This document shows positions 1-64,000 of a stretch of 64,000 bases of DNA, piece after piece; the stretch's first letter is position 1, and every line of letters starts with the position of its first letter. Origin of the DNA: Eledone cirrhosa (Eukaryota); contig OZ024749.1 in NCBI GenBank assembly GCA_964016885.1, forward strand, positions 22,568,001-22,632,000. Reading direction: 5' to 3'. A program made the position numbers and the translations under genes. Under the pieces are notes generated by a model. It had not been told where the DNA came from. It made no database searches and saw only the letters and a list, made by a program, of their open reading frames with translations.

Positions 1-147
1 TGCTGGTACATATTTTCAGCTGAGTATAGGGGAGCAACTTGAAATGAACTGTTTTGCTCAAGAACACCACAGACAGCCTGATCCAGGAATCGAACTCATG
101 ACATTATGATCGTAAATCCAATACCCTTTCCACAAGACCACGCGCCT
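1..147 (-). mobile_element. tRNA-derived SINE (family B), 5' part, cut by window edge
   Basis: Reverse strand has an A-box-like GTGGTCTTGTGG and B-box GAGTTCGATTCC, then GTGTTCTTGAGCAA..TTCATTTCAAGTTGCTCC, shared with 25779-26125 and 54300-54420. Confidence 0.65.
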
Positions 148-843
148 AAATTCTTCGTGATATTCATTACATCGAGTTTTCGATGAGATTGTCAAGACTT
201 GAATGCGTTCGATTTAATCATTGAAATAAAATCAAAATTTTCATTAGCACTGTCTGCACCAGACTGAATTTCAAAAAATAATACAGATAAAATTAAATAA
301 AATAAGAATTGTTTTTTAATTCATTGAATTATGATATCGAATTTTTAAAGGTGGTGTTGGGCAAAAAAAATATATTGTATGACTAATGGCTTCAATAGAC
401 ACCATATTGTACATAAACACTCAGAGATAAAACATACATAGACAGAAACTTTCTTAAAAGAGAATATGTTAAGATATATATTTTTAAGAGGAAGCACAAA
501 AAAATACGCACCACACGACGAAAAAAAATATATAATAATGAAATAAAACGAAATAAACTGAAGAAATTTAACAGAAAAATGGTAATAATTGGTTTTATCA
601 CTAGACGTTAATAATAAGAAGGAGATTTCGTTTTTTTTTCATTCTTTTATTTTTCATTTTATTCTATTTTAATTTTTTCCTCCTTCTTAAGTAAAATCTA
701 TAAACGATATATGAATGAATAGTATCAGTATTTGTATATATATATATATAAATATGTATATATATATATATATACGCATATATATATGTGTGTGTGTCGG
801 TGTGTGTGGTGTGTGTGAGTGTATGTGTGTATATTTATACAAT

Positions 844-2973: not shown

Positions 2974-3825
2974 TGCTGAACGTAATAAAATAATACTAAA
3001 TAAAATAAAACCAAATAATGAAATCTTACGTGCTATTGACGAAATAGGGGTGAATATTTACGACGGATTAAACCTCTACATTTTGGCAAATCAACGCTTG
3101 TTTATGCCCTAGCAACGACAGAAAAACATTATCTTGGTGTTAGCAGAGATATCAACAAGAACAAAATACCGCCAAAAATGCCATCATATATAACTAAAAT
3201 ATAAAAAAAAATTGCTGACCTACGAAAAGCAATAGGATATGTGACAATGCTCCTTACATGCAAACAAACACAAAAAAACTTCACTCTTCACCAACAAAGA
3301 GTGAAAAATAAAATAGAAACAATGTTTGGACGGCTATTACCCACTCTACTACCCAACGCATCGGGTACTCTGGTGCCATACAACACTTCCTTCGTTATAT
3401 ATATATATATAAAATTCCAAGTCTGAAGAACTATTAGATAAAATATATACGGTATTTCCTCTCCTAATCAGTATAAATCAGCCACATGAAAAATTATTTA
3501 AACGAGGCTATAAGTTTAAAATGTACTTATGAAGAAATAATAGACAAATGATACAGACTATCTGCGGCGATATATAGCTATATGACACTTGTATAATTAT
3601 TTCTTTTAGCCTGTAGAAATTGACTAGACAAATAGTTAGAAATACTGTATATATTTTATCTAATAGTTCTTCAGACTTGCAATTTTATATATAGCTCTGA
3701 TTAATGATTATTTGCTTAATTAATTCTTCATTGAGCCACACCGTGAAAGGTTGCCAAACTCATATATGTATCTGTGACTATGTCTAATTATATATACCCC
3801 TTTGAATTTTATATATATATATATA

Positions 3826-3975
3826 TAACGAAGGAAATGTGGTAAGGAACCAGATGGACCATAACGCACGAAAGTACTCAATATTTAGGGTAGTAGAGTG
3901 GGTAATAGGAACGAGTAGGACCCTGACGGCTGAGCTCAAGCCGTTTCGACGGCTAATTCTGGACTAACTCGAGTC
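3826..3975. mobile_element. Short (TA)n-associated repeat (AACGAAGGAAATGTGG family), probable PLE terminal fragment
   Basis: About 11 copies in the window, always abutting (TA)n; hairpin AATTCTGGACT/AGTCCAGAATT. Confidence 0.65.
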
Positions 3976-4617
3976 CAGAATTTGTGATGTTGCTGATGTT
4001 AGAAAATAAGGGTAAATTAGAAAACATAGAAATAAAAATAGAATCTACACACAAAAAAGACGCAATGTTTAGACAAATCACAGAGGCAATAAACATAAAA
4101 GAATTACAACCAAAATTAAATAGAAAACATGAGTGGAACAGCAACATCACAACTTACAATTAAGGATTAAATGAAAACACACACGCACATAGAACAAACA
4201 ACCAACCTGTCACATGTAAATAAACAAATAAATAAACGAATATAAACATACACAGACACCCGGATGTGGCGCATGCGCATACTGAGCACACAACACACAC
4301 ACTGAAACAAGATGGCGTAGGACAGAACAAAGGAGAGGCACAAAAACAAAGAAAAGAATCCCAGTCACTGAAGATGTCACATAATGTGTGACGAAAGAAC
4401 TTTGACAATATATAAACAACCATCTGGTTGTGGAACAAACCAACCAACCGGAAATTTAGAAATTGATATATTCCTAAATTTATAAATTTATAATAATAAA
4501 TTGTGAAAGCAACTGGTGCGTGTGTTTCTTATTGGCAACATGACCCTCCCAAAGTATAACAATATCGGTTTCAACACACGTTTTCAAATACAGAATCTTG
4601 CTAAACAAATTCAGAAA

Positions 4618-4620
<3 letters not shown>
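3976..4620 (+). mobile_element. Penelope-like element 3' fragment (GIY-YIG C-terminus + 3' UTR)
   Basis: Encodes GKLENIEIKIESTHKKDAMFRQITEAINIKELQPKLNRKHEW, homologous to 63343-63612(-). 14-bp inverted piece at the 5' junction; ends in (TA)n. Confidence 0.8.
4364..4406 (+). ncRNA. Minimal type I hammerhead-like motif in PLE 3' UTR
   Basis: GTCA-CTGAAGA-T-GTCAC..GTGAC-GAAA-GAAC-TT-TGAC, with one extra nt before stem II. Confidence 0.55.
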
Positions 4621-6554: not shown

Positions 6555-6621
6555 ATGCTAGCTTATAGTCCGGAACAGCATGCTAACTTATAGTCCGGAA
6601 CAGCATGTTAGCTTATAGTCC
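6555..6621. repeat. 25-bp minisatellite (2.7 units), resuming at ~7435-7480
   Basis: ATGCTAGCTTATAGTCCGGAACAGC units. Confidence 0.85.
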
Positions 6622-7421
6622 ACACAGCACCGCCTTGCTTGTTTTCGTGCGGCCTCCAAACACAACAGTGGTGACTGGCTCCATGCTCTGTCCTCCTTCT
6701 CCACTGACACACAGCTAGACAATCATAGCCTGCGAATCGACGTTTCCCTGAGGCTCGGCCTCCGGATCTGCCAGCCACATCAATGTAGCTGCGGTTCCAC
6801 CGTGGACGCTTTCAGTCTCCACCCGCTTTCCTGTCGCCACAGTTCCGGCCGCATTCCACGCCATACTGCCCTCAACGAGGTCATTAAGCATGGCTTGGAC
6901 GCTGCAGGGTTCCCTTCCCAGCTCGAGCCGGTGGGGCTGGATCGTGGGGACGGCAAAAGGCCAGATGGCATGACCATCTTCCCGTTCCGCGTTGGCAAAC
7001 CCCTCGTCTGGGATGCCACTTGCACCGACACTTTCTGCGACCGCAACCTGGTGCAGTCTGCGACTGACCCAGGTTCTGCTGCACGTCGGGCTGAGGGGGC
7101 CAAACTCCTCAAATACCGGTCGCTCTCCGACAGGTTTGCGGTCGTACCCCTGGCAGTGGAAACTTCTGGTATCCTCGGCCCCAGGGCTACCTCCTTACTC
7201 ACCACCATAGGCGCTGAGCTAGCCAGCTGTAGGTGTGAGCCCTACGAGTTGGAGTGGCTTTTACAGCGCGTCTCCCTTGCCGTCCTCCGGGGAAACGCCT
7301 TCTCCATTCTGTCCGCCGGGGCTGTGGATGGGTCCCATCGCGCACCATTACATTAGTTAAATACCATTCTTTCATCCCTGTAGAGTTAAATAAACATGTT
7401 TGTGGTTAAAAAAAAAAAAAA
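6622..7421 (+). mobile_element. CRE-like non-LTR retrotransposon, 5'-truncated (RLE domain)
   Basis: Open frame 6625-7356: SGDWLHAL..LRLGLRICQPHQCSCG..HPLSC (zinc knuckle), RH..N, KRPDG..VWDAT..AEGAKLLKY..PLAVETSG..QRVSLAVLRGNA. GC-rich; poly(A) at 7408-7421. Confidence 0.85.
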
Positions 7422-9486: not shown

Positions 9487-9660
9487 TGGAATAAGGGAAG
9501 AAGACGCACGAGGTGACGGAGGTCATGAAATCGCTCCCGTAAGTTTTGAATTTTTAACATATTTAAATCATTTGTGAAATAACAACTCTTAGTACAAATG
9601 CTACGTAAAGCACCCGGCTTGAGCCCCAAAAAAATTCGGACCCAAAATATATTGTTATAA

Positions 9661-10305
9661 GGCTCAAATATTCAAATATTCAACTTTGTATTGTACACTG
9701 TATATCCAAAAAAAAATGGCTATAAATGGAAGAAGAAGAACCCCCCCCCCCCTCCTCTCCTCTGGCTACACTATATAGGACAGCTAAACTCACCAACACC
9801 AGAAACTAGATACACCACCCACCCCATCATCTGTGTACACTAAACACAACAGCATTTTCACCTTCACCGCCACCGCTCACTACGGCCATCATTACCACCA
9901 CTATCCCATCACCGCCGCCACCACCCCTTGACTCCTTCACTGCTGCTGCCACCGCTACAGCACCATCACTACAGTAATACGGCTCAAATATTCAAATATT
10001 CAACTTTGTATTGTACACTGTATATCCAAAAAAAAATAAAATGGCTATAAATGGAAGAAGAAGAACCCCCCCCCCCCTCCTCTCCTCTGGCTACACTATA
10101 TAGGACAGCGAAACTGACCAACACCAGAAACTAGATACACCACCCACCCCATCATCTGTGTACACTAAACACAACAGCATTTTCACCTTCACCGCCACCG
10201 CTCACTACGGCCATCATTACCACCACTATCCCATCACCGCCGCCACCACCCCCTGACTCCTTCACTGCTGCTGCCACCGCTACAGCACCATCACTACAGT
10301 AATAC
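9661..10305. repeat. ~320-bp near-identical tandem duplication
   Basis: 9661-9980 is repeated at 9981-10305, both starting GGCTCAAATATTCAAATATTC. Confidence 0.95.
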
Positions 10306-10876
10306 GGTCGCATCACCGCCACCACTGCCTCGGTATCGACATCACCACCACCACTGTCTCAGTATCGCCAACGCCGCCAGTCTCTGCTGGCTACCACTTC
10401 CACATTATAGAATTCCTACTACTAACAAAGAGGAAGGCATCAAAATATATAGATAGACTCAAAAGAAAAAAGAAAAAACAAACAACAAAAGCAGCACAGC
10501 AACAACAGTAAAAAACGAGAAAAACAGAGAAAAACAAAAACAAAAAAAGAAACCCCAAAAACGTAAAGAAAATAAGAATGAAGAGAGAAGCAGGCGGACG
10601 GACAGAGAAGAGGGGGGAAAAAGTAAAACTTAAAAAACAAAAACTAAGTCAGACATTCGAATACTACATTACAATGAAACTTATGCTTATTCATTTTTGG
10701 GGCCCTTTCTGCCCGTGTGTTTGTTTGTTTATGTGTGTCCGTATACAGCGTGGTGATAATGCCACACAAGGGCCAAGTGGGATGGCGGATCCACAGATGG
10801 CTATGTAAACATACATTCGCCAATCCTCGATAAGAGTGTTTAAATATCGAACATAAACAGTTCGAATAACGGTGAA

Positions 10877-13800
10877 ATGGAGACTAGAACGTCATGTGAC
10901 AGACTCTCACCCAACAGGTGCCCCCTGGCTCAGCAGCAGGAACCTGACTGTCAACCAAATACTGCTGATGTTGGAGGAAGAAGAAGAAGGAAAGGGGCCA
11001 GAACCAACTGGACGAAAGAATTGAATAGAACTGTTATGCAATGCTACCTGAAAAGTAACCCCAAGGAGAGGGGCTACAGGAGACGGATGCATAACATCTG
11101 GAACGAGATTGGTTTATTTAAATTAGATGAACAAAAATTGGCCGGGCAGGCTCGGGTAATAAGAACTAATGGGTAGATAAGCGAGCTGGAACTGGAGGAA
11201 CTGAGCAGAGAGAATGGCTTGGAGATGGCGGGTGCAGTATGCCAGACAAGCGAGCCGGCGGGAAATGAAGGTGAGGAGGTCCTGAGAACGGAGGAACCAC
11301 CCGAAGCAGACAATGATCTGAATACTGAGATAAATAATACCTGGAACAGAGATACGGCCACTGAGGAGATGAATGCTGACGGGCTAGGACAAGATTCGGT
11401 TGACATCCTAAATTTAGTGGTAGATGAGTTGAACAATGATAGTGGGAGACCTATGAACCTAAGATTTGTAGACAGGAAAAAGTTAAAAGAAACAACAGCT
11501 AAGGTAAACAAAGTCATCCCATACCTTGAGGCGAGGAGTCTTCACCAGTGCAACAATATCCTCAAAGCAACAGCAAATACGGTGAGGAAACTACTTGGTA
11601 TAAAAGCGAGAGGAAACAACAGACAAGAAAGAGCAGAGCCGTGGTGGAAGAAGCGACTGAGTGGGCAAATCGGGGAAATGAGAAATGACATAGGAAAGCT
11701 TGAGTCACTACTGAATGGGACACTAAAAAACATAGGCACTAAAAATAGACTGGAAATAAAATACAAAACTAGGAGTAAAAAGCTAAATATTATCATAGAG
11801 GAATTGAAGCAACGCATTGTAGCAAAGAGTGCCAAAATCAGGCGATACGAGAACAGAGTCAGTCAGTATAAACAGAACCGCATGTTCGACAACAACCAGA
11901 AGATGCTGTTTGGACAGCTTGAGGGGAAAGAAAGAGGCAACGACTTGATCCCTGGGGCGGAACAAGCTAAAACATTCTGGAGAGGAATATGGGAGCAGGA
12001 TGTTAGACACAATGCCCAGGCAGGGTGGATTGAGACAGTACAGAGGGAGATCGGTGAGCAGGCACAGCAACAGACTGATTTGAGTATCACAGTTGAAACT
12101 CTTAAGGGGCAAGCCAAAAAACTAACCAACTGGAAATCACCAGGCCCAGATGGTGTGCAGGGGTATTGGATTAAACATTTAACATCCCTCCACCCGAAGC
12201 TGACGGCCATGTTCAATGACTGCTTGGTGTCGGGTGAGGTGCCAGAGTGGTTGACAAAAGGTACCACAGTTCTGATAATGAAAGACCGAATCAAGGGTAA
12301 TGATGTTACCAACTATAGACCTATCACATGTCTGCCCGTAATGTGGATACTGTTGACGAGCATTGTGTCTGAGGAAATCTACCATCACCTCCACACAAAC
12401 AACTTGTTGCCGGACGAACAGAAAGGATGCCGAAAGAAGTCACGTGGTACAAAGGACCAGTTGCTTATTGATAAGATGGTAATGGGGAATTGCAGGAGGA
12501 GACACACTGATCTTGCCATGGGATGGATAGACTACAGAAAGGCATTTGACATGGTGCCTCATTCCTGGATCACCAAAAGCCTGGAGATCTTCAGGGTGGC
12601 AGATAACATCAGACAGTTGCTGGGCAGGAGTATGGGGTCCTGGGAGACAGAGTTGACATCAACTGGAGTATCCTTGGGAAGCGTGAAGATCAAAAGAGGT
12701 ATCTTCCAGGGAGATAGCCTGTCCCCTCTGTTGTTTGTCCTTGCCCTGATGCCCTTGACCATTATGCTGCGAAAAGTGAGAGCAGGATACAAGTTGGGAA
12801 GGGGAGAGCTTACCATCAATCACCTCCTCTTCATGGACGATCTTAAGCTCTTCGGGAAAAGTGAGAAGGAGTTGGATGTGCTTGTTGACACTGTCCGTAT
12901 TTTCAGCAGTGATATATGTATGCAGTTTGGTATTGGTAAATGTGGAGTCATTGTGATGAGGAGGGGTAGGTTGAGCAGAAGTAACGGGATCCAGATACCA
13001 ACAGGTGAGATGATAAAGGAAATTGACTCTGAGGAAGGATACAAGTATTTGGGCGTTCTGGAGGCTGATGGCATAAAGAACAAAAAAATGAAGGAATTGT
13101 TAAGAACTGAATACATTCGGAGAGTAAGGAGCGTATTGAAGTCACATCTGAACAGCAGAAATGCCATAAGCGCAGTAAATTCCCGAGCTGTGTCTATTAT
13201 TAGGTACAGTGCGGGAATTCTGAGATGGAATGTTGCTGAACAAAAAGAAATGGATAGGAAGACTAGGAAGCTATTGACTATCTACAACATGTTCCACAAG
13301 AGGAGTGATGTCGATAGACTCTACCTAAGGAGATCTGAGGGTGGAAGAGGTCTTATCAGCATAGAGGACTGTGTTCAGATGGAGAAAAACAACCTATACA
13401 AATACGTGACCTATAGTAAGGAGCCAATGCTCAGAGCTGTACTGAAGGAGGGGACAGTAGGCCAGGGGATACCCAAGGAGGAAATAACATCAAGGAGGAA
13501 GAGCAGCCTTAAGGGAAAATCCCTTCATAGTACCTTCTTTGAGAAAACTGAATTTAGAGATCCACAGACATGGAACTGGTTGAGAAGAGGAGACCTCAAA
13601 AAGGCTACAGAAGGAATGCTAATGGCTACGCAGGAGCAGGCCCTCAAAACGAAGTGGTTGAAGCACCATATCTACAAGGAGGAGGCTAGCCCACTGTGCA
13701 GGATCTGTGGAGAGAGAGAGGAGACTGTGGCTCACATTGTGTCCGAGTGTAAACACCTAGCCCAGACCCACTATAAGGGCTGGAGACACGATGTGATGGG

Positions 13801-14269
13801 CAGGGTGATCCACTGGCACCTGTGCAAAGTAAACAATCTACCACATTCTGAGAAATGGTATGAGCATAGGCCAGAGGCGGTGATGGAGAACAGTCAGGTG
13901 AAGGTGCTGTGGGATTTTAGGATACAGACGGACAAAAAACTGGAACACAATAGACCTGACCTGGTGGTTGTGGACAAAGAAAAAAGATCGTGCCTGATTG
14001 TGGATGTGGCCTGCCCGTTCGACACGAGAGTGAAAGAGAAGGAGAGGGAGAAAATTAACCGATACCAGGACCTAAAGTGGGAGGTGAAAAGGATTTGGAA
14101 CTGCCATGAAGTCAAAGTGATCCCGATTGTCATAGGCGCACTGGGGACTATCTCCAAAAGTTTCCAGGGATGGTTAAAGAAAATCGGCCCCTTCACGCTT
14201 TTTGGAACGCTTCAAAAGGCATGCTTGCTTGGAACGGCAAGAACCCTCCGATACGTCCTGAATATCTGA
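10877..14269 (+). pseudogene. R4/Dong-clade non-LTR retrotransposon ORF (RT + CCHC + restriction-like endonuclease), one premature stop
   Basis: 10877-11176 and 11219-14269 are in the same frame, separated by TAG at 11174 (probably TGG). RT motifs KSPGPDG, YRPITCL, DYRKAFD, GIFQGDSLSP, LFMDD. CRICGEREETVAHIVSEC; RH; RPDLVVVD..IVDVACP..KINRY. The 3' UTR ends in (AAT)n at 14343-14377. Confidence 0.93.
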
Positions 14270-14377
14270 GGCTGCAGGTAGTGGCTTGATATTCAATCCA
14301 ACGGACTTTCCAGTTAACCAACATCAATGACTGAGATTCAAGGAATAACAATAACAATAATAATAATAATAATAATA

Positions 14378-14680
14378 GGATTTGGAACTGCCATGAAGTC
14401 TGCCATGAAGTCAAAGTGATCCCGATTGTCATAGGCGCACTGGGGACTATCTCCAAAAGTTTCCAGGGATGGTTAAAGAAAATCGGCCCCTTCACGCTTT
14501 TTGGAACGCTTCAAAAGGCATGCTTGCTTGGAACAGCAAGAACCCTCCGATACGTCCTGAATATCTGAGGCTGCAGGTAGTGGCTTGATATTCAATCCAA
14601 CGGACTTTCCAGTTAACCAACATCAATGACTGAGATTCAAGGAATAACAATAACAATAATAATAATAATAATAATAATAA
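14378..14680 (+). mobile_element. 5'-truncated second copy of the same Dong-like element (3' ~290 bp)
   Basis: Near-identical to 14091-14377; 12-bp internal duplication TGCCATGAAGTC; own (AAT)n tail. Confidence 0.92.
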
Positions 14681-17600
14681 GAGGCTATATTGATAGTAAC
14701 AAACTAGCCAATATACGAAGAAATATTGTAAGAAAAAAGTTACTAACTGATATAGAAATTGATCAGATCAAGCTAGTAGCACAAAGTCAGCGAAGGGAAA
14801 ATGAAGCATGTGTCAGTGAAAATGAGGTAAACTGTAACACTTCGAATCCCAGGGTTGGGGCGGAATCACTGGCAACAGAACAAATTAAAGAAAGGAGCGA
14901 AAAAGTGGAGGGAGTGCATGCTCAGGATGAAACTCCAAATGAAAATAATGAGATCGTAAATGATAAAGAAATGAATGAGAATGAACTTGCCAACTTTAAG
15001 GATGAAATTATGATCGAATGGATGAAAATGAAAGAATCTGACATGGGGGAACGAGACACCCTCCCTAAGATCCAGGACTCCAAACAGAACCAAAAGATAA
15101 TACACAAGACTAACATAATTCTCAAAAACATTATCATCACAAACAAACTAAACATTACTGACTTAAATCATCTCTATTATGCATCGGCTAAAGTCACCAC
15201 TCACTTATGTGGAGTGAAGATGAAAAAACAAAGGAATTCCCACAAGAAATCTACTTGGCAAGATAACATCAATCGCCAAATAAACCTTCTCCGATCTGAC
15301 ATAGAAATTTTAACAAACTATAAAGTAGGTGAACATGTTAAACAAACTAAACTTAGAAAATTGAAAAAAAAGTACAGTATAAGATCAACATGTGACATAG
15401 ACATGCTGATAGAAACAATCAAGCAAAAAGTGTCGGCCAAAGCTGCTCGTATAAGGCGCTTTGAAAAACGATCTAGATTCTATACGGACAATAATATGTT
15501 CAAAAACAACAAAAGAAACTTCTACAGAAAAATTGGTAAGTCAACAATAACTGCTAAATCAATACCACCCAAGGAGGAAGTGCAAGAATTCTGGGAAAAG
15601 ATCTGGGCCGAAGAAAAAGTTCATAACATACATGCCCCATGGATAGACAGACAAATGAAAGAAACAGCTCACCTTGAAGAACAAACATGGGAAAATATAA
15701 CAGTTGAACAGCTGCGCTTGGCTCTAAGAAAAACCAGCAAATGGAAATCCCCAGGAAAAGACAAAATACAAAACTTTTGGATAAATGCCTTCACAGAGTC
15801 TCATGAGCTGTTAGCCCAACTTTACAATGAAATAGTTAAGGAGCCAGAAAAGATACCATCATGGCTAGTTAACGGCATTACATTCCTGCTACCGAAGAAT
15901 GATGAGACAAACAATCCCAAAAATTACAGACCGATAACCTGCTTGACCACACTGTATAACATTTTAACATCAGTCCTAACTGAATACACATATGACCACC
16001 TGATAACAAATGACCTATTTCCCATTGAGCAGAAAGGGTGTAAATGAGGCTCATATGGCTGTAAGGATCAGCTTCTGGTTAACAAAATGATACTGGAAGA
16101 TTGTCATAATAGACACAAAAATCTATCGATTGCTTGGATAGATTATAAAAAAGCATTTGATAGTTTGCCACACAGTTGGATTGAAAAATGTTTAGAGATT
16201 TTCAAAATATCCCCCGTTGTCAGGAGGTTTTTGTCATTCAGTATGAGGACATGGAGAACGACACTCCTTTTGAATAGTGAAACAAAATCACTGGAAGCTG
16301 GAGAAGTTAACATTAATTGTGGAATTTTTCAGGGTGACTCTTTATCACCGCTTTTATTCTGCATCGCACTTATACCATTAAGTAAAATGCTCAATGAAAC
16401 AAAACATGGATATAGAGTCTATGACAAAACCATTAATCACCTGTTCTACATGGATGACCTGAAACTATTTGCAAACAATGATGAACAATTGCAAGGGCTA
16501 TTATCCACTGTGAAGCAGTTCAGTGATGACATTAAAATGGAGTTTGGACTGGATAAATGCGCCAAAGCAACGTTCACCAGAGGAAAGCTGCTGAAGAGTT
16601 CAGACATTAATCTTGATCGGGGGAACGTGATAAGAGAGCTTGATCATGAACAAACTTACAAATATCTAGGTGTTTGTGAAGGAGACGGAATCAAGCACTC
16701 GACAATGAGGGAAAGGATAAGGAAGGAATGTTACCGCAGAGTCAGAGCAATCTTAAGAACGGAAATGAATGCAAGGAATATGATCGATGCCATAAACACG
16801 CTTGCCATACCAGTAGTAACCTACAGTTACAATGTCATCAACTGGTCAAGCACAGAGATCCGTAGGCTCGATACAAAAATCCGAAAATTCTTAACCATGC
16901 ACAGAATGCATCACCCTAAGGCAGACATAGATAGAATATATCTCCCTAGGAAAGAAGGAGGACGTGGGTTAATCCAGTTAGACATTGCGTTGAAAACTGC
17001 AACAATTGGATTATCCACATATCTAAGGGAATCACATGATTGGATGATCAAACTCGTTTTGAAACACGAAAGCACCAAAAGATCATATTCCATTACAAAA
17101 GATGCACAAAGATACAGTAATGGACTACAAATTTCAGAAGTCCCATTTACTGCTGAAATGGAAAACACAGAAAAAGCAAAGCAGGTAAAAGTAACTGCAA
17201 AGAAAGAACTGCTACAGAAACTGGCTAAGAAATGGCAAGAAAAGCCTCTGTATGGAAAATACCCAGAGCGAGCTAACAATCCTGATGTTGACAAAACTTT
17301 AACCCATCAGTGGTTGGCATCCTCTGGACTGAAATCGGAGACTGAAGGACTGATTATATCGGCACAAGATCAGTGTCTGCCAACAAAAAATTACCAAGCC
17401 AACATAATAAAAAATGGGTGCAGCCCATTATGCCGTGTATGCAAAAAACAACCAGAGACCATTGACCATATAATTTCAATGTGCAGTCCTATAGCTCCAA
17501 CCGAATACCTAAACAGGCATGACAGAGCTGCACAATACATACATTGGATAATGTGTAAGCATTTTGACCTGCCCCATCAAAAGAATTGGTGGGAACATCA

Positions 17601-18145
17601 ACCACCTCCCATACTTGAAAAAGATCACATCTCAATCTTGTGGAACTTTAGCATCCAAACAGACCGAAAAATAGATGTAAATAGACCTGATATAATATTG
17701 AAGGACTTTCAAAGGAGGGTATGCCTGCTAATTGATATGTCTGTTCCAATAGACAAGAATGTATCTATAAAAACATTTGAAAAATTGAGCAAGTATAAGG
17801 ACCTGGAGATAGAAATTGGAAAAATGTGGAAATTGAGAACTAAAACAATACCAGTGGTTGTAGGCGCTCTGGGAATGATACCTAAGGGGTCTAACGACTA
17901 CTTATCGCAATCCCAGGAAACCCGCGTATAGGAGAAATACAAAAGATAGTACTAATGGGAACTGCCCATATACTAAGGAAGATCCTGTCAATATAAGTAC
18001 ATCACAAGTCTAAACACTAAGGATGCATGTGTGAATATGTATGTTCTTTCTTGAACATGGCGGACCTTGTTGTCTCTTGAGGTCACTGGTTGTGACTTGG
18101 TGATAACTCGTATAAACATAAAGCAAGATAAATGCAAATAATAAT

Positions 18146-20863: not shown

Positions 20864-21270
20864 ATAGTTTCAGAAGATCCACTTAACGGTGAAAGCAGCA
20901 GTTCTTGGCTAAACTTTAATCTGTTATTTTAATAAATATTTGCTCTACGGTTCTTATATATTTGATATATATGTTATCCTTATCTAGCCCTCTTCGGATT
21001 TTAGTCTCCAGATTTATTATTATTACTACACACACATATATATATATATGTTTGTATGTATATATATATATATATAATGAAGGAATTGTGGTAAGGAACC
21101 AGATGGACGATAACGCACCAAAGTACTCAATACATAGGGTAGTAGAGTGGGTAATAGGAACAAATATGACCCCGACGGCAGAGCTCAAGCCGTTTCGACG
21201 GCTATTTCTGGAGTCCAGAAATAGCCGTCGATCGGTTTGAACTCTGCCGTCGGGGTCATACTTGTTCCTA
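20864..21270 (+). mobile_element. Composite: CAGAAGA HHR-like segment + microsatellite + AACGAAGG-family repeat
   Basis: Near-identical inverted copy at 52893-53262, including the internal microsatellite. Confidence 0.7.
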
Positions 21271-21332
21271 TATATATATATATATATAGTTAAATAAGAT
21301 ACAAGGACGATTGGTTACTCCTTCATTAGGTT

Positions 21333-22398: not shown

Positions 22399-22427
<29 letters not shown>

Positions 22428-22433
<6 letters not shown>

Positions 22434-22506
22434 ATACTTTGAGAGGGTCATGTTGCCAACACACGATTTCAGATAAAGAATCTTGCTAAACAAATTCAGA
22501 ACCGAA

Positions 22507-22507: not shown

Positions 22508-22543
<36 letters not shown>

Positions 22544-23111
22544 GGAAAATATTTAACCCCGACGGCAGAGCTGAAGCCGTTTCGACGGCTATTTCTGTCT
22601 AGTTATAGCCGTCGAAACGGCTTGAGCTCTGCCGTCGGGGTTAAACATTTTCCTATTATCCACTCTATTACGTATGTAGGGTGTGTGTATATGTGTACTT
22701 TGTGTTTTTTTCTATGTACGTATCCGAACATATGTATATTTACATGTAGGTATGTGTGTACGTGCGTTAAATGCGTATTTATTTATTTATATACGTTTAT
22801 ATAATAATATGTATACACGCACACACACACATATAAATGTAGATATATTTTTAAGTATATTTTATGTGTATTTGGTGTATACATTCGTATGTGTGCGGGT
22901 ACAGGTGTTGCGTGGGTTCTGTATGTGCGTGCGGGTTTTTTTTGTGTACGTGCTTGTATATGTATACCTATGGCGAGTGTTTTCGCGTATGCTTGTGTAT
23001 GTACGTATTTGGATGCGTGTATGGCTTCATTTAATTTCAATTACCTCTGTATTTTATTTACTTTATTCTTAACTCTGAAGCCGAGAATCATTCGGTTTCC
23101 TAGTTAGAATT

Positions 23112-23587: not shown

Positions 23588-23765
23588 TTATAAATATATA
23601 TATATATTATATATATATATATAACGAGGGAAATGTGGTAAAGAACCAGATGGACCATAACGCACCAGAGGACTCAATACTTAGGGTAGTAGAGTGGGTA
23701 ATAGGAATATTTCTAGAAATAGCCGTCGAAACGGCTTGAGCTCTGCCGTCGGGATCATACGTATC

Positions 23766-25368: not shown

Positions 25369-25465
<97 letters not shown>

Positions 25466-25563
25466 CGAAGGAAATGTGGTAAGGAACCAGGTGGACCATA
25501 ACGCACCAAAGTACTCAATACTTGGGGTAGTAGAGTGGGTAATAGGAACCGGTAAGACCGGTT

Positions 25564-39198: not shown

Positions 39199-39875
39199 CA
39201 AACATCTGTATGTTTAACAATGTTTGTATCTACTGCAGCCATCTTAAACTAGTAATATAAGATGAAAACATAGAAATAAAAAAAATAATAACAATAATAA
39301 CAGTAATAGAACCGCAAAACAACAACAACACCACCACCACCACCAACAACAACAACTACAACTACAATAACAACAGAAACATAATAAATGAAATAAATAA
39401 AATGAATAAAATTATTATATAGAATATACGATATTACAAAAAAAAAAAATCGAAAACATGAAATGCTTATTGGACATATAAGAAATATATATTTGAATAA
39501 AGTTTATCTGTTCTAAAAATATAGAAAAAATAAAATTAGCAAGCAATGAATCTATTTAGCTTTAGGTTAAGTAATGATAATGTTGTATATATGAGATGGT
39601 ATGTGTTTAGCAGCATGATACTAGGAAATCCTCTAGTAATGCTCTTTAAATTGGAATCATATTTAGATAGAACCAGTGATTAATGTCTTCTTCATATATA
39701 TATATAGGGACAAGTATGACCCCGACGGCAGAGCTCAAGCCGTTTCGACGACTAATTCTGGACGTTCAGAATTAGTCGTCGAAACGGCTTGAGCTCTGCC
39801 GTCGGGGTCATACTTGTTCCTATTACCCACTTTGGTGCGTTATGGTCCATCTGGTTCCTTACCACATTTCCTTCG

Positions 39876-39911
<36 letters not shown>

Positions 39912-39992
39912 CGAAGGAAGTGTGGTAAGGAACCAGATGGACCATAACGCACCAGAGTACTCAATACTTAGGGTAGTAGAGTGGGTAATTTT

Positions 39993-45132: not shown

Positions 45133-45321
45133 GACATATCGTATAAATACATATTGAATATATACATATATGTATATATGCACATATGTATATATAGAGA
45201 GAGAGAGATAAATAGTTAGATATATGGATAGCTAGATTGATATCTAACTAGATACGTGTACATATTTAGTTATACGTATGAGAACCGTCCTCTATACGAT
45301 CCTAAGGGAGTTCTTAATAAC

Positions 45322-45506
45322 TGTTTCTACTTTAGGCACAAGGCCAGCAATTACCCAGTGCATTACTGGTACTTTATTTTATCGACCTCGTAAGGATGAA
45401 AGGCAAAGTCAACCTCGGCGGGATTTGAACTCAGATCGTAAAGGGACGTAACTAAGCTGGAAAGCATGGCGTGCGACCCTCTACCGATACTGGTACTCCA
45501 CCGCCC
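45322..45506 (-). mobile_element. SINE family A with 14-bp TSD
   Basis: GAGTTCTTAATAAC at 45308 and 45510. Confidence 0.9.
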
Positions 45507-45562
45507 TGCGAGTTCTTAATAACACTTTGTATTTTGTATCCATGTATTCGTGTTATTTATTC

Positions 45563-45960: not shown

Positions 45961-46028
<68 letters not shown>

Positions 46029-46263
46029 ATGTTTAGAAACACACAGATACATGCGGACACACACATATACATGAATGCATCCACACCCAACCGTGAGTTA
46101 AGGGTGCCAACCTCACCGATGTTGCTCAATGAATGACTGGGACAGACCAATCCGGTTGAACTAGACTGAAGAAGTATCAGAGTTAAAAATACATTATGAA
46201 GAGAGAAGAAACATTTAGATATAATTAGTAATAAAATGTATCATACCTAAACTGCTCCTAGAT

Positions 46264-46353
46264 TCCTCGACTACGTAGTTTCGTGGCTTAAACAAAAACA
46301 ATATATCATAAAGATATAGAGTCCTTGCGAGGTCTGCCGACTTATCAAGAGGA
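46264..46353 (-). ncRNA. Type I hammerhead, U3-A8 core
   Basis: Reverse complement of TCCTC-TTGATAA-GTCGGC..GCCAC-GAAA-CTACGTAG-TC-GAGGA. Confidence 0.75.
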
Positions 46354-46856
46354 TACCTCATTTTACTAGCCTCAAGAACGCGTCTAGACGACGTGAGAAA
46401 GAATCCCAAAAGGCGGAGGGGGAGATAGTCACGCGATATAACGGTCGAGAAACAGAGCTAAGCCTCTTATAACCCCGAAGAAAATACCACGGAGGCGGAG
46501 GGGGTATTCATATCGAAGCCGTAGAAGAGGTGGTGAAGGGGGAGAGAAGTATGAGTAATGGCTGCATTCCAGCATTCACCACACTTCAAAGATTACTCGA
46601 CCAGAGGGAGTTATTAACAATATATTTAGAAACACACAGATACATGCGGACACACACTTATACATGAATGCATCCACACCCAACCGTGAGTTAAGGGTGC
46701 CAACCTCACCGATGTTGCTCAATGAATGACTGGGACATACCAATCCGGTTGAACCAGACTGAACCAGTATCAGAGTTAAAAATACATTATGAAGAGAGAA
46801 GAAACATTTAGATATAATTAGTAATAAAATGTATCATACCTAAACTGCTCCTAGAT

Positions 46857-46946
46857 TCCTCGACTACGTAGTTTCGTGGCTTAAACAAAAACAATACATC
46901 ATAAAGATATAGAGTCCTTGCGAGGTCTGCCGACTTATCAAGAGGA
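46857..46946 (-). ncRNA. Type I hammerhead, U3-A8 core
   Basis: Same motif as 46264-46353, +593. Confidence 0.75.
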
Positions 46947-47502
46947 TACCTCATTTTACTAGCCTCAAGAACGCGTCTACACGACGTGAGAAAGAATCCC
47001 AAAAGGCGCAGTTTAGGTATGATACATTTTATTACTAATTATATCTAAATGTTTCTTCTCTCTTCATAATGTATTTTTAACTCTGATACTGGTTCAGTCT
47101 AGTTCAACCGGATTGGTCTGTCCCGATCATTCATTGAGCAACATCGGTGAGGTTGGCACCCTTAACTCACGGTTGGGTGTGGATGCATTCATGTATATGT
47201 GTGTGTCCGCATGTATCTGTGTGTTTCTAAATATATTGTTAATAACTCCCTCTGGTCGAGTAATCTTTAAAGTGTGGTGACTGCTGGAAAGCAGCCATTA
47301 CTCATACTTCTCGCCTCCTTCACCACCTCTTCTACGGCTTCGATATGAATACCCCCTGCGCCTCCGTGGTATTTTCTTCGGGGTTATAAGAGGCTTAGCT
47401 CTGTTTCTCGACCGTTATATCGCGTGACTATCTCCCCCTCCGCCTTTTGGGATTCTTTCTCACGTCGTGTAGACGCGTTCTTGGGGCTAGTAAAATGAGG
47501 TA

Positions 47503-47592
47503 TCCTCTTGATAAGTCGGCAGACCTCGCAAGGACTCTATATCTTTATGATGTATTGTTTTTGTTTATGCCACGAAACTACGTAGTCGAGGA
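47503..47592 (+). ncRNA. Type I hammerhead, U3-A8 core
   Basis: Stem I TCCTC/GAGGA; TTGATAA at 47508-47514; stem II GT(C)GGCA/TGCCAC; GAAA at 47574-47577; palindromic CTACGTAG; GUC at 47585-47587. Confidence 0.78.
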
Positions 47593-48095
47593 ATCTAGGA
47601 GCAGTTTAGGTATGATACATTTTATTACTAATTATATCTAAATGTTTCTTCTCTCTTCATAATGTATTTTTAACTCTGATACTGGTTCAGTCTAGTTCAA
47701 CCGGATTGGTCTGTCCCAGTCATTCATTGAGCAACATCGGTGAGGTTGGCACCCTTAACTCACGGTTGGGTGTGGATGCATTCATGTATATGTGTGTGTC
47801 CGCACGTATCTGTGTGTTTCTAAATATATTGTTAATAACTCCCTCTGGTCGAGTAATCTTTGAAGTGTGGTGACGGCTGGAAAGCAGCCATTACTCATAC
47901 TTCTCGCCTCCTTCACCACCTCTTCTACGGCTTCGATATGAATACCCCCTCCGCCTCCGTGGTATTTTCTTTGGGGTTATAAGAGGCTTAGCTCTGTTTC
48001 TTGACCGTTATATCGCGTGACTATCTCCCCCTCCGCCTTTTGGGATTCTTTCTCACGTCGTGTAGACGCGTTCTTGAGGCTAGTAAAATGAGGTA

Positions 48096-48185
48096 TCCTC
48101 TTGATAAGTCGGCAGACGTCGCAATGACTCAATATCTTTATGATGTATTGTTTTTGTTTATGCCACGAAACGACGTAGTCGAGGA
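48096..48185 (+). ncRNA. Type I hammerhead, U3-A8 core (stem III point mutation)
   Basis: Same motif as 47503-47592, but with CGACGTAG. Confidence 0.68.
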
Positions 48186-48254
48186 ATCTAGGAGCAGTTT
48201 AGGTATGATACATTTTATTACTAATTATATCTAAATGTTTCTTCTCTCTTCATA

Positions 48255-48292
<38 letters not shown>

Positions 48293-49830: not shown

Positions 49831-50395
49831 GGATTGGCAGTATCGGTAGAGGGTCGGACGCCATGCCTTGACGCAAAGAGTTACGGCCCTTGCCAGTCTG
49901 AGTTCAAATCCCGCCGAGGTTAACTTTGCCTTTCATCCTTACGGGGTCGATAAAATAAAGTACCAGTAATGTACTGGGTATTTGCTGGCCTTGTGCCTCA
50001 CGTAGAAACAATTATTATTATTATTGTTTCTACTTTTAGGCACAAGGCCAGCATTACTGGTACTTTATTTTATCGACCCCGTAAGGATGAAAGGCAAAGT
50101 CAACCTCGGCGGGATTTGAACTCAGATCGTAAAGGGACGTAACTATGCTGGAAAGCATGGCGTCCGACCCTCTACCGATACTGCCAATATTATTATTATT
50201 ATGAAGGTGGAGGATTGGCAGTGTCGGTAGAGGGTCGGACGCCATGCTTTCCAGCATAGTTACGTCCCTTTACGATCTGAGTTCAAATCCCGCCGAGGTT
50301 GACTTTGCCTTTCATCCTTACGGGGGTCGATAAAATAAAGTACCAGTAATACACTGGGTTTTTGATGGTCTTGTGCCAAAAGTAGAAACAATTAT
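49831..50395. mobile_element. Three adjacent SINE A copies (+,-,+) separated by (ATT)n
   Basis: 49831-50014(+), 50021-50187(-), 50205-50395(+). Confidence 0.9.
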
Positions 50396-50660
50396 TATTG
50401 TTAGTAGTAGTAGTAGCAGTAGTAGTAGTGCCAGCAGGAGCAACAGCAGCAGCAGCAACATTAGTAACATTACTACGTCCTTCACTACAACATCAATTAG
50501 TCGGTCTATAGTTATTTATGTCTATTGATGTCTTCGGAATCTTCATGCTTGTTTCTAAAACAAGAATTCTACGAATGGATTTGGCAACTTAATGCAGAGA
50601 TTGTTATCTTAGTCACTCTCTCTCCCTCTTTCCTCTTTACCCTCTCTCTTTCCTCTTTAC

Positions 50661-52818: not shown

Positions 52819-52892
52819 TATATATGTATATATATATATATATGCATGTCGTTAGCTTGGCCACCGCCATAATTTTCCATTTATATATATAT

Positions 52893-53001
52893 TGAGCTCT
52901 GCCGTCGGGGTCATACTTTTTCCTATTAGCCACTCTACTACCCTAAGTATTGAGTAATTTGGTGCGTTATGGTCCATCTGGTTCTTTCCCACAATTCCTT
53001 C

Positions 53002-53069
<68 letters not shown>

Positions 53070-58240: not shown

Positions 58241-58328
58241 TATATACACACACACATATATATATATATATATAGAGAGACACACAAAGACACACATACA
58301 CATATATGTACATATATATATATATATA

Positions 58329-58646
<318 letters not shown>

Positions 58647-62265: not shown

Positions 62266-62321
<56 letters not shown>

Positions 62322-62497
62322 AAAATGTTTGACCCCGACGGCAGAACTGAAGCCGTTTCGACGGGTATTTCTAGTCCATAAATAGCTTGAGCTCTGCCGT
62401 CGGGGTCAAACATTTTCCTATTACCCACTCTACTACCCTAAGTATTGAGTACTCTGGTACGTTATGGTCCATCTGGTGCCTTACCACTCTTCCTTCG

Positions 62498-62584
<87 letters not shown>

Positions 62585-62703: not shown

Positions 62704-63812
<1,109 letters not shown>

Positions 63813-64000
63813 CCCATAGTAATAGTTACCTAGACACTTACGACCTTAGCAACCTGTGCCCTACAAGACCAGCAAGAGGCAGACCACCTACCATTACCTC
63901 AATGGCCAAGAAAACCCACACAGATAGATGGAACGGGTGGACCAGAGCCAAACGGACACCCGAAAACCACGATGAACTGAAGAAAATGATTGCACATGCG
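63813..64000 (+). mobile_element. Probable PLE RT-region coding sequence (direct arm), runs off the window
   Basis: Open frame LSNLCPTRPARGRPPTITS..RW..RTPENHDELKKMIAHA starts at the strand-switch junction; resembles an insert seen in some PLE RTs (recognised by eye). Confidence 0.5.

What the first reader, a model, noticed from the sequence alone, without database searches (positions are those of the whole stretch)
46026..48258. 593-bp non-coding, ribozyme-punctuated tandem/inverted array: candidate retrozyme-like retroelement
Seen: a 593-bp unit with no credible ORF is repeated about 1.7x leftward and about 2.1x rightward from a junction at ~47008, inside (TA)n. Copies differ by only scattered substitutions. 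Every unit has one type I hammerhead, so a read-through transcript would self-process into exact 593-nt monomers (cuts after 47587 and 48180). The direct arm starts only 13 nt downstream of the predicted cut site. Known: retrozymes are non-autonomous HHR-bearing tandem repeats that give circular RNAs, and PLE insertions often have an inverted 5' arm. Inference: this is a multimeric cDNA copied from a circular or multimeric RNA by a (TA)n-targeting PLE enzyme. Because of its variant core, canonical CUGANGA searches would miss it.
Basis: partly seen in the sequence, partly recalled or inferred. Interest (0 to 1): 0.85.

Follow-up and report, generated by a model that had tools for sequence, protein, structure and literature searches.

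The report
Ribozyme repeat riding Penelope retrotransposons
A 593-base non-coding repeat carrying a predicted self-cleaving hammerhead ribozyme sits here as two back-to-back multi-copy arms inside a TA microsatellite, and other copies of it end at the same two points, so it is likely a parasite copied by Penelope-type retrotransposon enzymes: a new variant of the known animal 'retrozymes'.

Summary
A 593-bp unit without a credible ORF forms a head-to-head insertion in (TA)n: 1.66 units on the minus strand (47008-46024) and 2.11 on the plus strand (47008-48260), joined at an imperfect 8-nt microhomology. Four type I hammerhead motifs with a U3-A8 core are present; the one cutting at 48180 has a broken stem III. 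Public runs hold the unit at very high depth, head-to-tail, with recurrent 3' ends into (TA)n at +80 and +242 after the predicted cut: the ends of the two arms here. A GIY-YIG-coding Penelope family and a second (TA)n family in the same window show the same layout (one short end, one tailed end). Best reading: a non-autonomous element mobilised by a Penelope-like (PLE) enzyme through two target-primed cDNAs, from an already multimeric RNA. Cleavage, expression, circles and the partner enzyme are untested; the stop 13 nt from a cut fits a linear, ribozyme-cut template better than a circle. Non-LTR retrozymes, the U3-A8 core and the inverted/tail layout are each in print; their combination, with a 59-nt stem II and a ~162-nt tail, was not found in my searches.

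The parts
46024..47008 (-). Left arm: unit positions +447..593, 1..593, 1..245 (1.66 units); 3' end is the long ('tailed') end, running into (TA)n
   Evidence: a family end at +242 recurs in other copies
47008..48260 (+). Right arm: unit positions +14..593, 1..593, 1..80 (2.11 units); 3' end is the short end, running into (TA)n
   Evidence: the +80 end recurs in other copies
47004..47011 (.). 5'-to-5' junction at an imperfect microhomology (6 of 8 bases) between unit +10..17 and the reverse complement of +444..451
   Evidence: 0.4% of sense/antisense 8-mer pairs of the unit match that well
47498..47596 (+). Type I hammerhead motif, U3-A8 core, predicted cut after 47587; all 18 tested pairs possible; active fold 1.1 kcal/mol above the minimum
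48091..48189 (+). Hammerhead motif, predicted cut after 48180; stem III palindrome broken by one substitution, three more changes in the stem II extension; probably impaired
46853..46951 (-). Hammerhead motif, predicted cut after 46862; stem III intact, last stem II pair lost
46260..46358 (-). Hammerhead motif, predicted cut after 46269; stem III intact, last stem II pair lost
47659..47832 (+). 'Tail' domain between the two recurrent 3' ends (+72..245); a predicted 11-bp AU-rich helix (+72..82 with +235..245) would place the two ends face to face
   Evidence: pair probability mostly >0.9 in local folds of 3 of 3 copies but about 0 in whole-arm folds and in the whole 47588-48180 monomer: a prediction only
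45964..46024 (.). Left (TA)n target, part of a larger microsatellite field
48258..48290 (.). Right (TA)n target; a target-site duplication cannot be told inside (TA)n

Best explanation
This is one insertion of a high-copy, ORF-less 593-bp repeat with a predicted hammerhead ribozyme in each unit, likely copied into a (TA)n microsatellite by a borrowed Penelope-like (PLE) reverse transcriptase-endonuclease. Shown: the head-to-head layout, the multimeric arms, the (TA)n flanks, the two recurrent 3' ends (+80, +242), the microhomology at the junction. Inferred: the enzyme cut both strands of (TA)n and each DNA end primed a cDNA at one of two fixed internal start sites on the RNA; both cDNAs ran through more than one unit, so the template was already multimeric; the two cDNA ends then annealed at the 8-nt microhomology. 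Inferred and weakest: the template was a linear read-through RNA whose 5' end had been cut by the ribozyme (right arm stops 9-13 nt short of a cut) while downstream ribozymes stayed uncut, as expected of a slow, dimer- or protein-dependent hammerhead. Identity as a PLE-mobilised non-autonomous element about 0.8; with the linear-template step about 0.6.
For: Recurrent ends: loose ends into (AT)n at 47667 (+80; 11 contigs in X1, 215 reads in X21) and 47829 (+242; 6 contigs, 247 reads); these are 4 of the 15 loose-end rows shown, 152 rows not shown. Head-to-tail joint of 593 in 3 of 4 runs (X1 7 contigs, X14 1 contig, X21 10 reads); all 30 depth bins covered in X1 at 61,000-590,000 against 9-18 for 7 of 8 listed single contigs; share of X1 running on into unlike sequence 0. 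Three other opposite-strand joints in X21 at other positions. Internal controls: a GIY-YIG-coding PLE family (PF01541) with a canonical hammerhead ends in (TA)n at +163 or +218 and has a mini head-to-head insert with one end of each (22426-22505); a second family has 4 clear head-to-head inserts with one short and one ~80-nt tailed end among about 11 loci. Literature: inverted 5' copy, tail at one end, (TA)n bias (PMC8557442 passages; PMC3846280 passages); a purified PLE protein cuts and extends both strands, starts at two internal sites downstream of the hammerhead and uses mostly uncleaved RNA (PMC11167929). Hammerhead anatomy and dimer-forming 10-bp palindrome. Both arms share letters that are rare in X1 (e.g. 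+157, +299, +492), i.e. one source lineage.
Against: No autonomous partner with matching sequence was found; the PLE in the window has no significant similarity to the unit. The distance between the two ends (~162 nt) is far longer than the 30-40 nt tails in print. The window's own junction is not among the joints listed in any of 4 runs. The +13 stop rests on one locus (chance about 2-4%); none of the 6 ends of the three other inversion joints lies near a cut. Depth falls to 60,000-140,000 over +257..329, so many family copies may be shorter than one unit (partly an edge effect). Rfam gives no hammerhead hit; one pair in stem II is broken by a common variant in X21 unless compensated. In PMC 2026 preprint 10.64898/2026.07.22.740005 only 1 of 9 predicted retrozyme dimers cleaved in vitro. 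Two letters of one left-arm unit equal common family alleles (+107, +558), which a single homogeneous template does not explain without conversion or recurrence.
Confidence: 0.6

Rival explanations
1. Same element and same PLE enzyme, but the template is a covalently closed 593-nt circle made by ribozyme cleavage and ligation, copied round more than once (classical retrozyme model).
For: Exact 593 period without indels; units nearly identical, differences star-like (25 private changes, 1 arm-specific site); monomer strongly structured (z -4.0 linear; z -3.7 circular); circles are shown for coral, mussel and axolotl retrozymes (PMC7229834).
Against: A circle has no 5' end, so the stop 13 nt from a cut would be chance; a young homogeneous array gives the same near-identity; PAc uses mostly uncleaved RNA in vitro.
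Confidence: 0.2
2. The unit is only the terminal repeat (pLTR plus tail) of an autonomous PLE; short truncated pieces inserted and the multimer arose by repeated template jumps or by later local tandem duplication.
For: PLE-type core variant; pLTR ancestry of retrozymes is argued in the 2026 preprint, which also proposes local amplification; lower depth at +257..329; 152 loose-end rows unseen.
Against: The +245..447 link between tail and next ribozyme is non-coding, present in both arms and read head-to-tail in three runs including a second coded organism; no ORF-like loose end among 15 shown; share running on into unlike sequence 0 in X1. Local duplication would have to happen independently in both arms with the same 593 period, which needs a full unit in the template anyway.
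Confidence: 0.12
3. The inverted arm came from self-priming or fold-back during one round of synthesis (the model offered for rotifer Penelope elements), not from two target-primed cDNAs.
For: Proposed in PMC3846280 (passages) for palindromic head-to-head junctions; junction microhomology fits a fold-back or switch as well.
Against: The two arms are not mirror copies: they start 160 nt apart on the circle and each ends at its own recurrent 3' site in (TA)n; the same short-plus-tailed pairing is seen in 5 other complete inserts in the window.
Confidence: 0.05
4. Assembly fold-back or a single-locus duplication with no mobile element behind it.
For: The junction of this locus was not seen in the 4 runs laid; no long reads were available.
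Against: Arms differ by 1.4-3.4% and are asymmetric; the unit is at very high depth with the same ends elsewhere; 0 of 3000 shuffles give the ribozyme motif.
Confidence: 0.02

Closest known systems
Animal non-LTR retrozymes (Cervera and de la Pena 2020, PMC7229834; Li, Clavereau and Pollet 2026, 10.64898/2026.07.22.740005)
   Same: Tandem, non-coding, GC below 50% (43%), one type I hammerhead per unit with a 2-bp stem III capped by a palindromic tetraloop, structured monomer, co-existing with PLEs; 593 bp lies inside the 51-972 bp range of the preprint.
   Different: Longer than the 150-450 bp of the 2020 paper; U3-A8 core and a 59-nt stem II instead of a canonical motif; head-to-head layout and two fixed 3' ends in (TA)n, which the parts of those papers that I read do not describe; cleavage and circles not shown here.
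Endonuclease-bearing Penelope-like elements, (TA)n-targeting Neptune/Nematis/Naiad type (PMC8557442, PMC3846280, PMC11167929)
   Same: Partial tandem plus inverted 5'-truncated copy, tail at one end only, (TA)n target, 3' end a short way downstream of the hammerhead (PAc starts about 85-92 nt after its cut by my arithmetic from the text; here +80).
   Different: No RT or GIY-YIG ORF; tail about 162 nt instead of 30-40; whole-unit multimers in both arms.
U3-A8 minimal hammerheads of Schistosoma mansoni Cercyon PLEs (PMC4209133)
   Same: Same core covariation, G10.1-C11.1 pair, palindromic stem III, pairs on opposite strands.
   Different: Those are minimal motifs, mostly single; this one has a 9-bp bulged stem I, a full stem III, no extra base before G10.1, and a long stem II extension, in a tandem unit.

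Membership tests
Animal non-LTR retrozyme | Head-to-tail tandem units | tested here: met
   head-to-tail joint in 3 of 4 runs
Animal non-LTR retrozyme | Type I hammerhead in every unit | tested here: met
   4 motifs, 3 with intact stem III; variant U3-A8 core; not recognised by Rfam
Animal non-LTR retrozyme | No protein-coding capacity | tested here: met
   frames at most 85 aa, no Pfam hit at cut-off for 7 scanned
Animal non-LTR retrozyme | Unit length | tested here: inconclusive
   593 bp: outside 150-450 bp, inside 51-972 bp
Animal non-LTR retrozyme | Loop 1-loop 2 tertiary contacts of canonical type I motifs | not tested
   stem I has a bulge and stem II a bulge plus internal loop; contacts not modelled (mussel retrozymes also lack them)
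Animal non-LTR retrozyme | Self-cleavage of the transcript | not testable with these tools
   only folding energies
Animal non-LTR retrozyme | Abundant monomeric linear and circular RNA in vivo | not testable with these tools
   needs RNA data or northern blots
Animal non-LTR retrozyme | Many genomic copies | tested here: met
   1478 contigs laid in X1, summed depth four orders above single contigs; not a true copy number, and X1 may not be the window's species
Autonomous Penelope-like element | ORF with RT and GIY-YIG endonuclease | tested here: not met
PLE-mobilised insertion | Inverted 5'-truncated copy with a tail at one end only | tested here: met
   tail longer than in print
PLE-mobilised insertion | (TA)n target | tested here: met
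PLE-mobilised insertion | Terminal sequence shared with an autonomous PLE | tested here: inconclusive
   no match to the PLE in the window; no genome held
Plant LTR retrozyme | Type III hammerhead in two LTRs, 4-bp TSD | tested here: not met
   type I topology, tandem and inverted units

The most novel reading that the evidence does not exclude
A retrozyme caught with the full footprint of Penelope retrotransposition: its RNA folds so that two priming sites 162 nt apart face each other on one AU-rich helix, one enzyme dimer primes both ends of a cut (TA)n there, and the ribozyme-punctuated multimer arrives ready-made. That would be direct genomic evidence that animal retrozymes move by PLE twin priming, would explain the PLE 'tail' as a looped-out domain of any length between two start sites, and would add a U3-A8 hammerhead with a long stem II to the working ribozymes.
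Probability: 0.25. Interest if true: 0.75.

Novelty: new variant of a known kind. Interest (0 to 1): 0.5.

Why it matters
How animal retrozymes get into new loci is stated as open in both main papers (circle copied by a borrowed RT versus local tandem growth of a pLTR). This family has fixed priming ends, ready-made multimers in both arms and very many copies, so a genome-wide count of ends and one in vitro assay could settle whether PLE enzymes mobilise retrozymes and whether the template is circular or linear. It also shows that searches for the canonical core, and Rfam, miss a large ribozyme-bearing repeat family.

Tried and rejected
No whole genome held, so no genome-wide count. No RNA holder listed. 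Runs of 16 other coded organisms hold small shares; only X5 and X14 were laid and hold close relatives at depth 2-13, which trace DNA of a high-copy repeat would also give: no claim of horizontal transfer. Pattern scans: viral contigs 0 and 4 loci, metagenomes 2 loci, prokaryote genomes 0; all 6 loci match only the 18-20-nt pattern or less and are chance. Rfam hits at E up to 10 are microRNA/low-complexity noise. No tRNA. Shared motif at the two 3' ends: not significant (346 of 1000 shuffles). Family variants versus predicted pairs: I entered 34 of the 40 rows shown (66 not shown); of 19 informative paired sites 12 keep a pair, 12 of 16 transitions against a null of 61%: inconclusive. The change-free stretch around +1..96: not significant (376 of 5000). 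A-to-I editing signature: none (3 A>G, 3 T>C among 25 changes). Arm-specific templates: only 1 diagnostic site. Similarity of the unit to the PLE at 63 kb: none. Lunse et al. on PLE hammerhead variants is not held, and the supplement of PMC7229834 could not be read; either may already list this motif or host. Look-ups of earlier scan notes by sequence and place were empty.

Full report
Observation. The region 46024-48260 is a 593-bp unit repeated without gaps. Counting +1 from the base after the predicted ribozyme cut, the right arm (plus strand, 47008-48260) holds +14..593, a full unit and +1..80, 2.11 units; the left arm (minus strand, 47008-46024) holds +447..593, a full unit and +1..245, 1.66 units. 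The arms meet 5' to 5' at 47004-47011, where the two unit segments share 6 of 8 bases; only 0.4% of sense/antisense 8-mer pairs of the unit match that well (tested after seeing it). Both outer (3') ends run into (TA)n. Overlapping copies differ by 0-3.4%; there are 25 private substitutions and one arm-specific site, no indels, no A>G excess. This asymmetry and divergence rule against an assembly fold-back. Stop-free frames inside the array reach 85 aa at most; 7 were scanned against Pfam without a hit at cut-off.

The ribozyme motif. Four copies of a type I hammerhead motif are present, C17 at 47587 and 48180 (+) and 46862 and 46269 (-). Core UUGAUAA has U3-A8 in place of C3-G8; stem I is 9 bp with one bulge; stem II opens with G10.1-C11.1, has a bulged C and a long hairpin extension (59 nt in all); stem III is two pairs and a palindromic tetraloop, a perfect 10-nt palindrome that favours a dimer (co-fold -66.5 against 2 x -26.4 kcal/mol). 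The active fold lies 1.1-2.8 kcal/mol above the minimum. A relaxed descriptor found 6 motifs in 64 kb on both strands (4 here, 2 in a coding PLE family) and none in 3000 shuffled units. Against: Rfam finds no hammerhead, the motif region alone is not more stable than shuffles (z -0.67), and activity is untested. The monomer as a whole is strongly structured (z -4.0, 0 of 100 shuffles).

The family. No genome was held. Twenty public runs hold part of the unit; four were laid on one permuted unit, 47324-47916, at 80% likeness. In X1 1478 contigs map, all 30 bins are covered at summed depth 61,000-590,000 while 7 of 8 listed single contigs have depth 9-18: a very high-copy family (order 10^4 copies by inference; the tool warns this is no copy number, and letters shared by all window copies are rare or absent in X1, so X1 may be another individual or species). 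The head-to-tail joint is seen in X1 (7 contigs), X14 (1) and X21 (10 reads), not in X5. Of 15 loose-end rows shown (152 not shown), four run into (AT)n, at just two places: +80 (11 contigs, 215 reads) and +242 (6 contigs, 247 reads). These are the ends of the right and left arm here (the left arm ends at +245). X21 shows three other opposite-strand joints at scattered positions (orientation not given; two rest on one read start each); this locus's own junction is not listed. A diverged sister family matches only the ribozyme stretch 47493-47592 (6 contigs, 137 reads). No variant in the core, GAAA, stem III or cut site is among the 40 rows shown (66 not shown). Two large, low-agreement loose-end groups in X21 (47630, 371 reads; 47700, 641 reads) are unexplained, perhaps AT-rich reads laid by chance. 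Depth drops over +257..329, so many copies may be shorter than one unit.

Controls in the same window. A PLE fragment at 62864-64000 (minus) encodes a C-terminal GIY-YIG domain (PF01541) behind a CX4CxxC motif, carries a canonical C3-G8 hammerhead, and ends in (TA)n at +163; a second copy ends at about +218; a mini insert at 22426-22505 is head-to-head with one end of each kind. A third family shows four clear head-to-head inserts in (TA)n with one short and one ~80-nt tailed end, among about 11 loci, the rest single-armed or irregular. So the layout of the finding is the ordinary footprint of (TA)n-targeting PLE enzymes in this genome. Neither family resembles the unit in sequence, so the partner enzyme is not identified.

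Mechanism. Shown: anatomy, recurrent ends, high copy. Inferred: a PLE RT-endonuclease cut both strands of (TA)n; each end primed a cDNA at one of two internal start sites; both cDNAs crossed ribozyme sites, so the template held more than one unit; the cDNA ends annealed at the microhomology. This follows the in vitro behaviour of the anole PLE, which cuts and extends both strands, starts at two internal sites that define the tail and uses mostly uncleaved RNA (PMC11167929, main text parts 1-2). Priming is not explained by TA content alone: +80 has a 3-nt alternating run while four unused-looking sites have 5-6, though unseen loose-end rows may include them. A predicted 11-bp helix would bring +77..80 and +236..245 face to face; it is near certain in local folds of 3 of 3 copies but absent from whole-arm folds and from one of two whole monomers, so it is a lead. 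Circle versus linear multimer cannot be decided; the right arm's stop 9-13 nt from a cut (chance 2-4%, one locus) tilts to a linear, ribozyme-cut RNA.

Comparison. Non-LTR retrozymes are described as tandem type I hammerhead repeats giving circular RNAs and suspected of using PLE enzymes (PMC7229834, parts 2-4 of 6 read; supplement not readable). A 2026 preprint derives them from pLTRs, gives lengths of 51-972 bp, found cleavage in 1 of 9 tested, and leaves mobilisation open (parts 1-3 of 5 read; supplements closed). The U3-A8 core and opposite-strand pairs are in PMC4209133 (parts 1-2 of 4 and a search of its supplement text). Inverted copies, tails and (TA)n bias are in PMC8557442 and PMC3846280 (passages). 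A review was seen in passages (PMC6765202). I did not find this family or this combination in nine searches, seen as listings; the library lacks most subscription papers and Repbase/Dfam were not searchable. The host is an animal; from recall the neighbouring SINE-like repeat looks octopod, which no call tested. Two unchecked notes of this scan describe tRNA-bearing tandem units with similar PLE footprints in other genomes.

Verdict. Real; works like a non-LTR retrozyme mobilised by PLE enzymes; meets every retrozyme feature testable from sequence, with cleavage and circles untested. New variant of a known kind; interest 0.5.

Noticed in passing
window 62864-64000 (-), 4000-4620 (+), 22426-22505: A coding PLE family: C-terminal GIY-YIG behind a CX4CxxC motif (Neptune/Nematis-like by the description in PMC8557442), canonical minimal hammerhead (N17 at 63028 and 4402), first codons of its ORF in the terminal repeat, two 3' ends about 55 nt apart, and an 80-bp head-to-head mini insert in (TA)n.
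   Followed up: partly
window 21075-21271, 39704-39878, 58328-58528, 62317-62500; irregular at 3334-3397, 3826-3960, 22541-22671, 23622-23760, 25463-25548, 39909-39989, 52883-53005: An unnamed (TA)n-targeting family seen only as short head-to-head inserts with one short and one ~80-nt tailed end; probably 3' ends of another PLE; looks like a MITE at first sight.
   Followed up: partly
window 11177-14269 (+) and 14617-17931 (+): Two adjacent non-LTR retrotransposon ORFs with RVT_1 (1030 aa uninterrupted; the second split at one stop), ending in (AAT)n; clade not determined.
   Followed up: no
window 6619-7356 (+): 245-aa frame without a Pfam hit that from recall resembles the C-terminal restriction-like endonuclease region of a non-LTR element.
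   Followed up: no
window 45293-45520 and 49831-50403: SINE-like repeat in several copies (one pair 98% identical over 133 nt); from recall octopod-like, untested.
   Followed up: no
runs X1 and X21, matching window 47493-47592: A diverged sister family shares the hammerhead stretch (16 substitutions, 3 gap positions); its flanks look distantly related by eye, including a small hairpin upstream.
   Followed up: partly
run X21, window 47630-47700: Hundreds of reads fit only this AT-rich stretch and run on into heterogeneous AT-rich sequence on both sides; unexplained.
   Followed up: no
window 9657-10307 and 14101-14676: Near-perfect two-copy tandem repeats of 325 and 299 bp (the second is the duplicated 3' end of the non-LTR element).
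   Followed up: no
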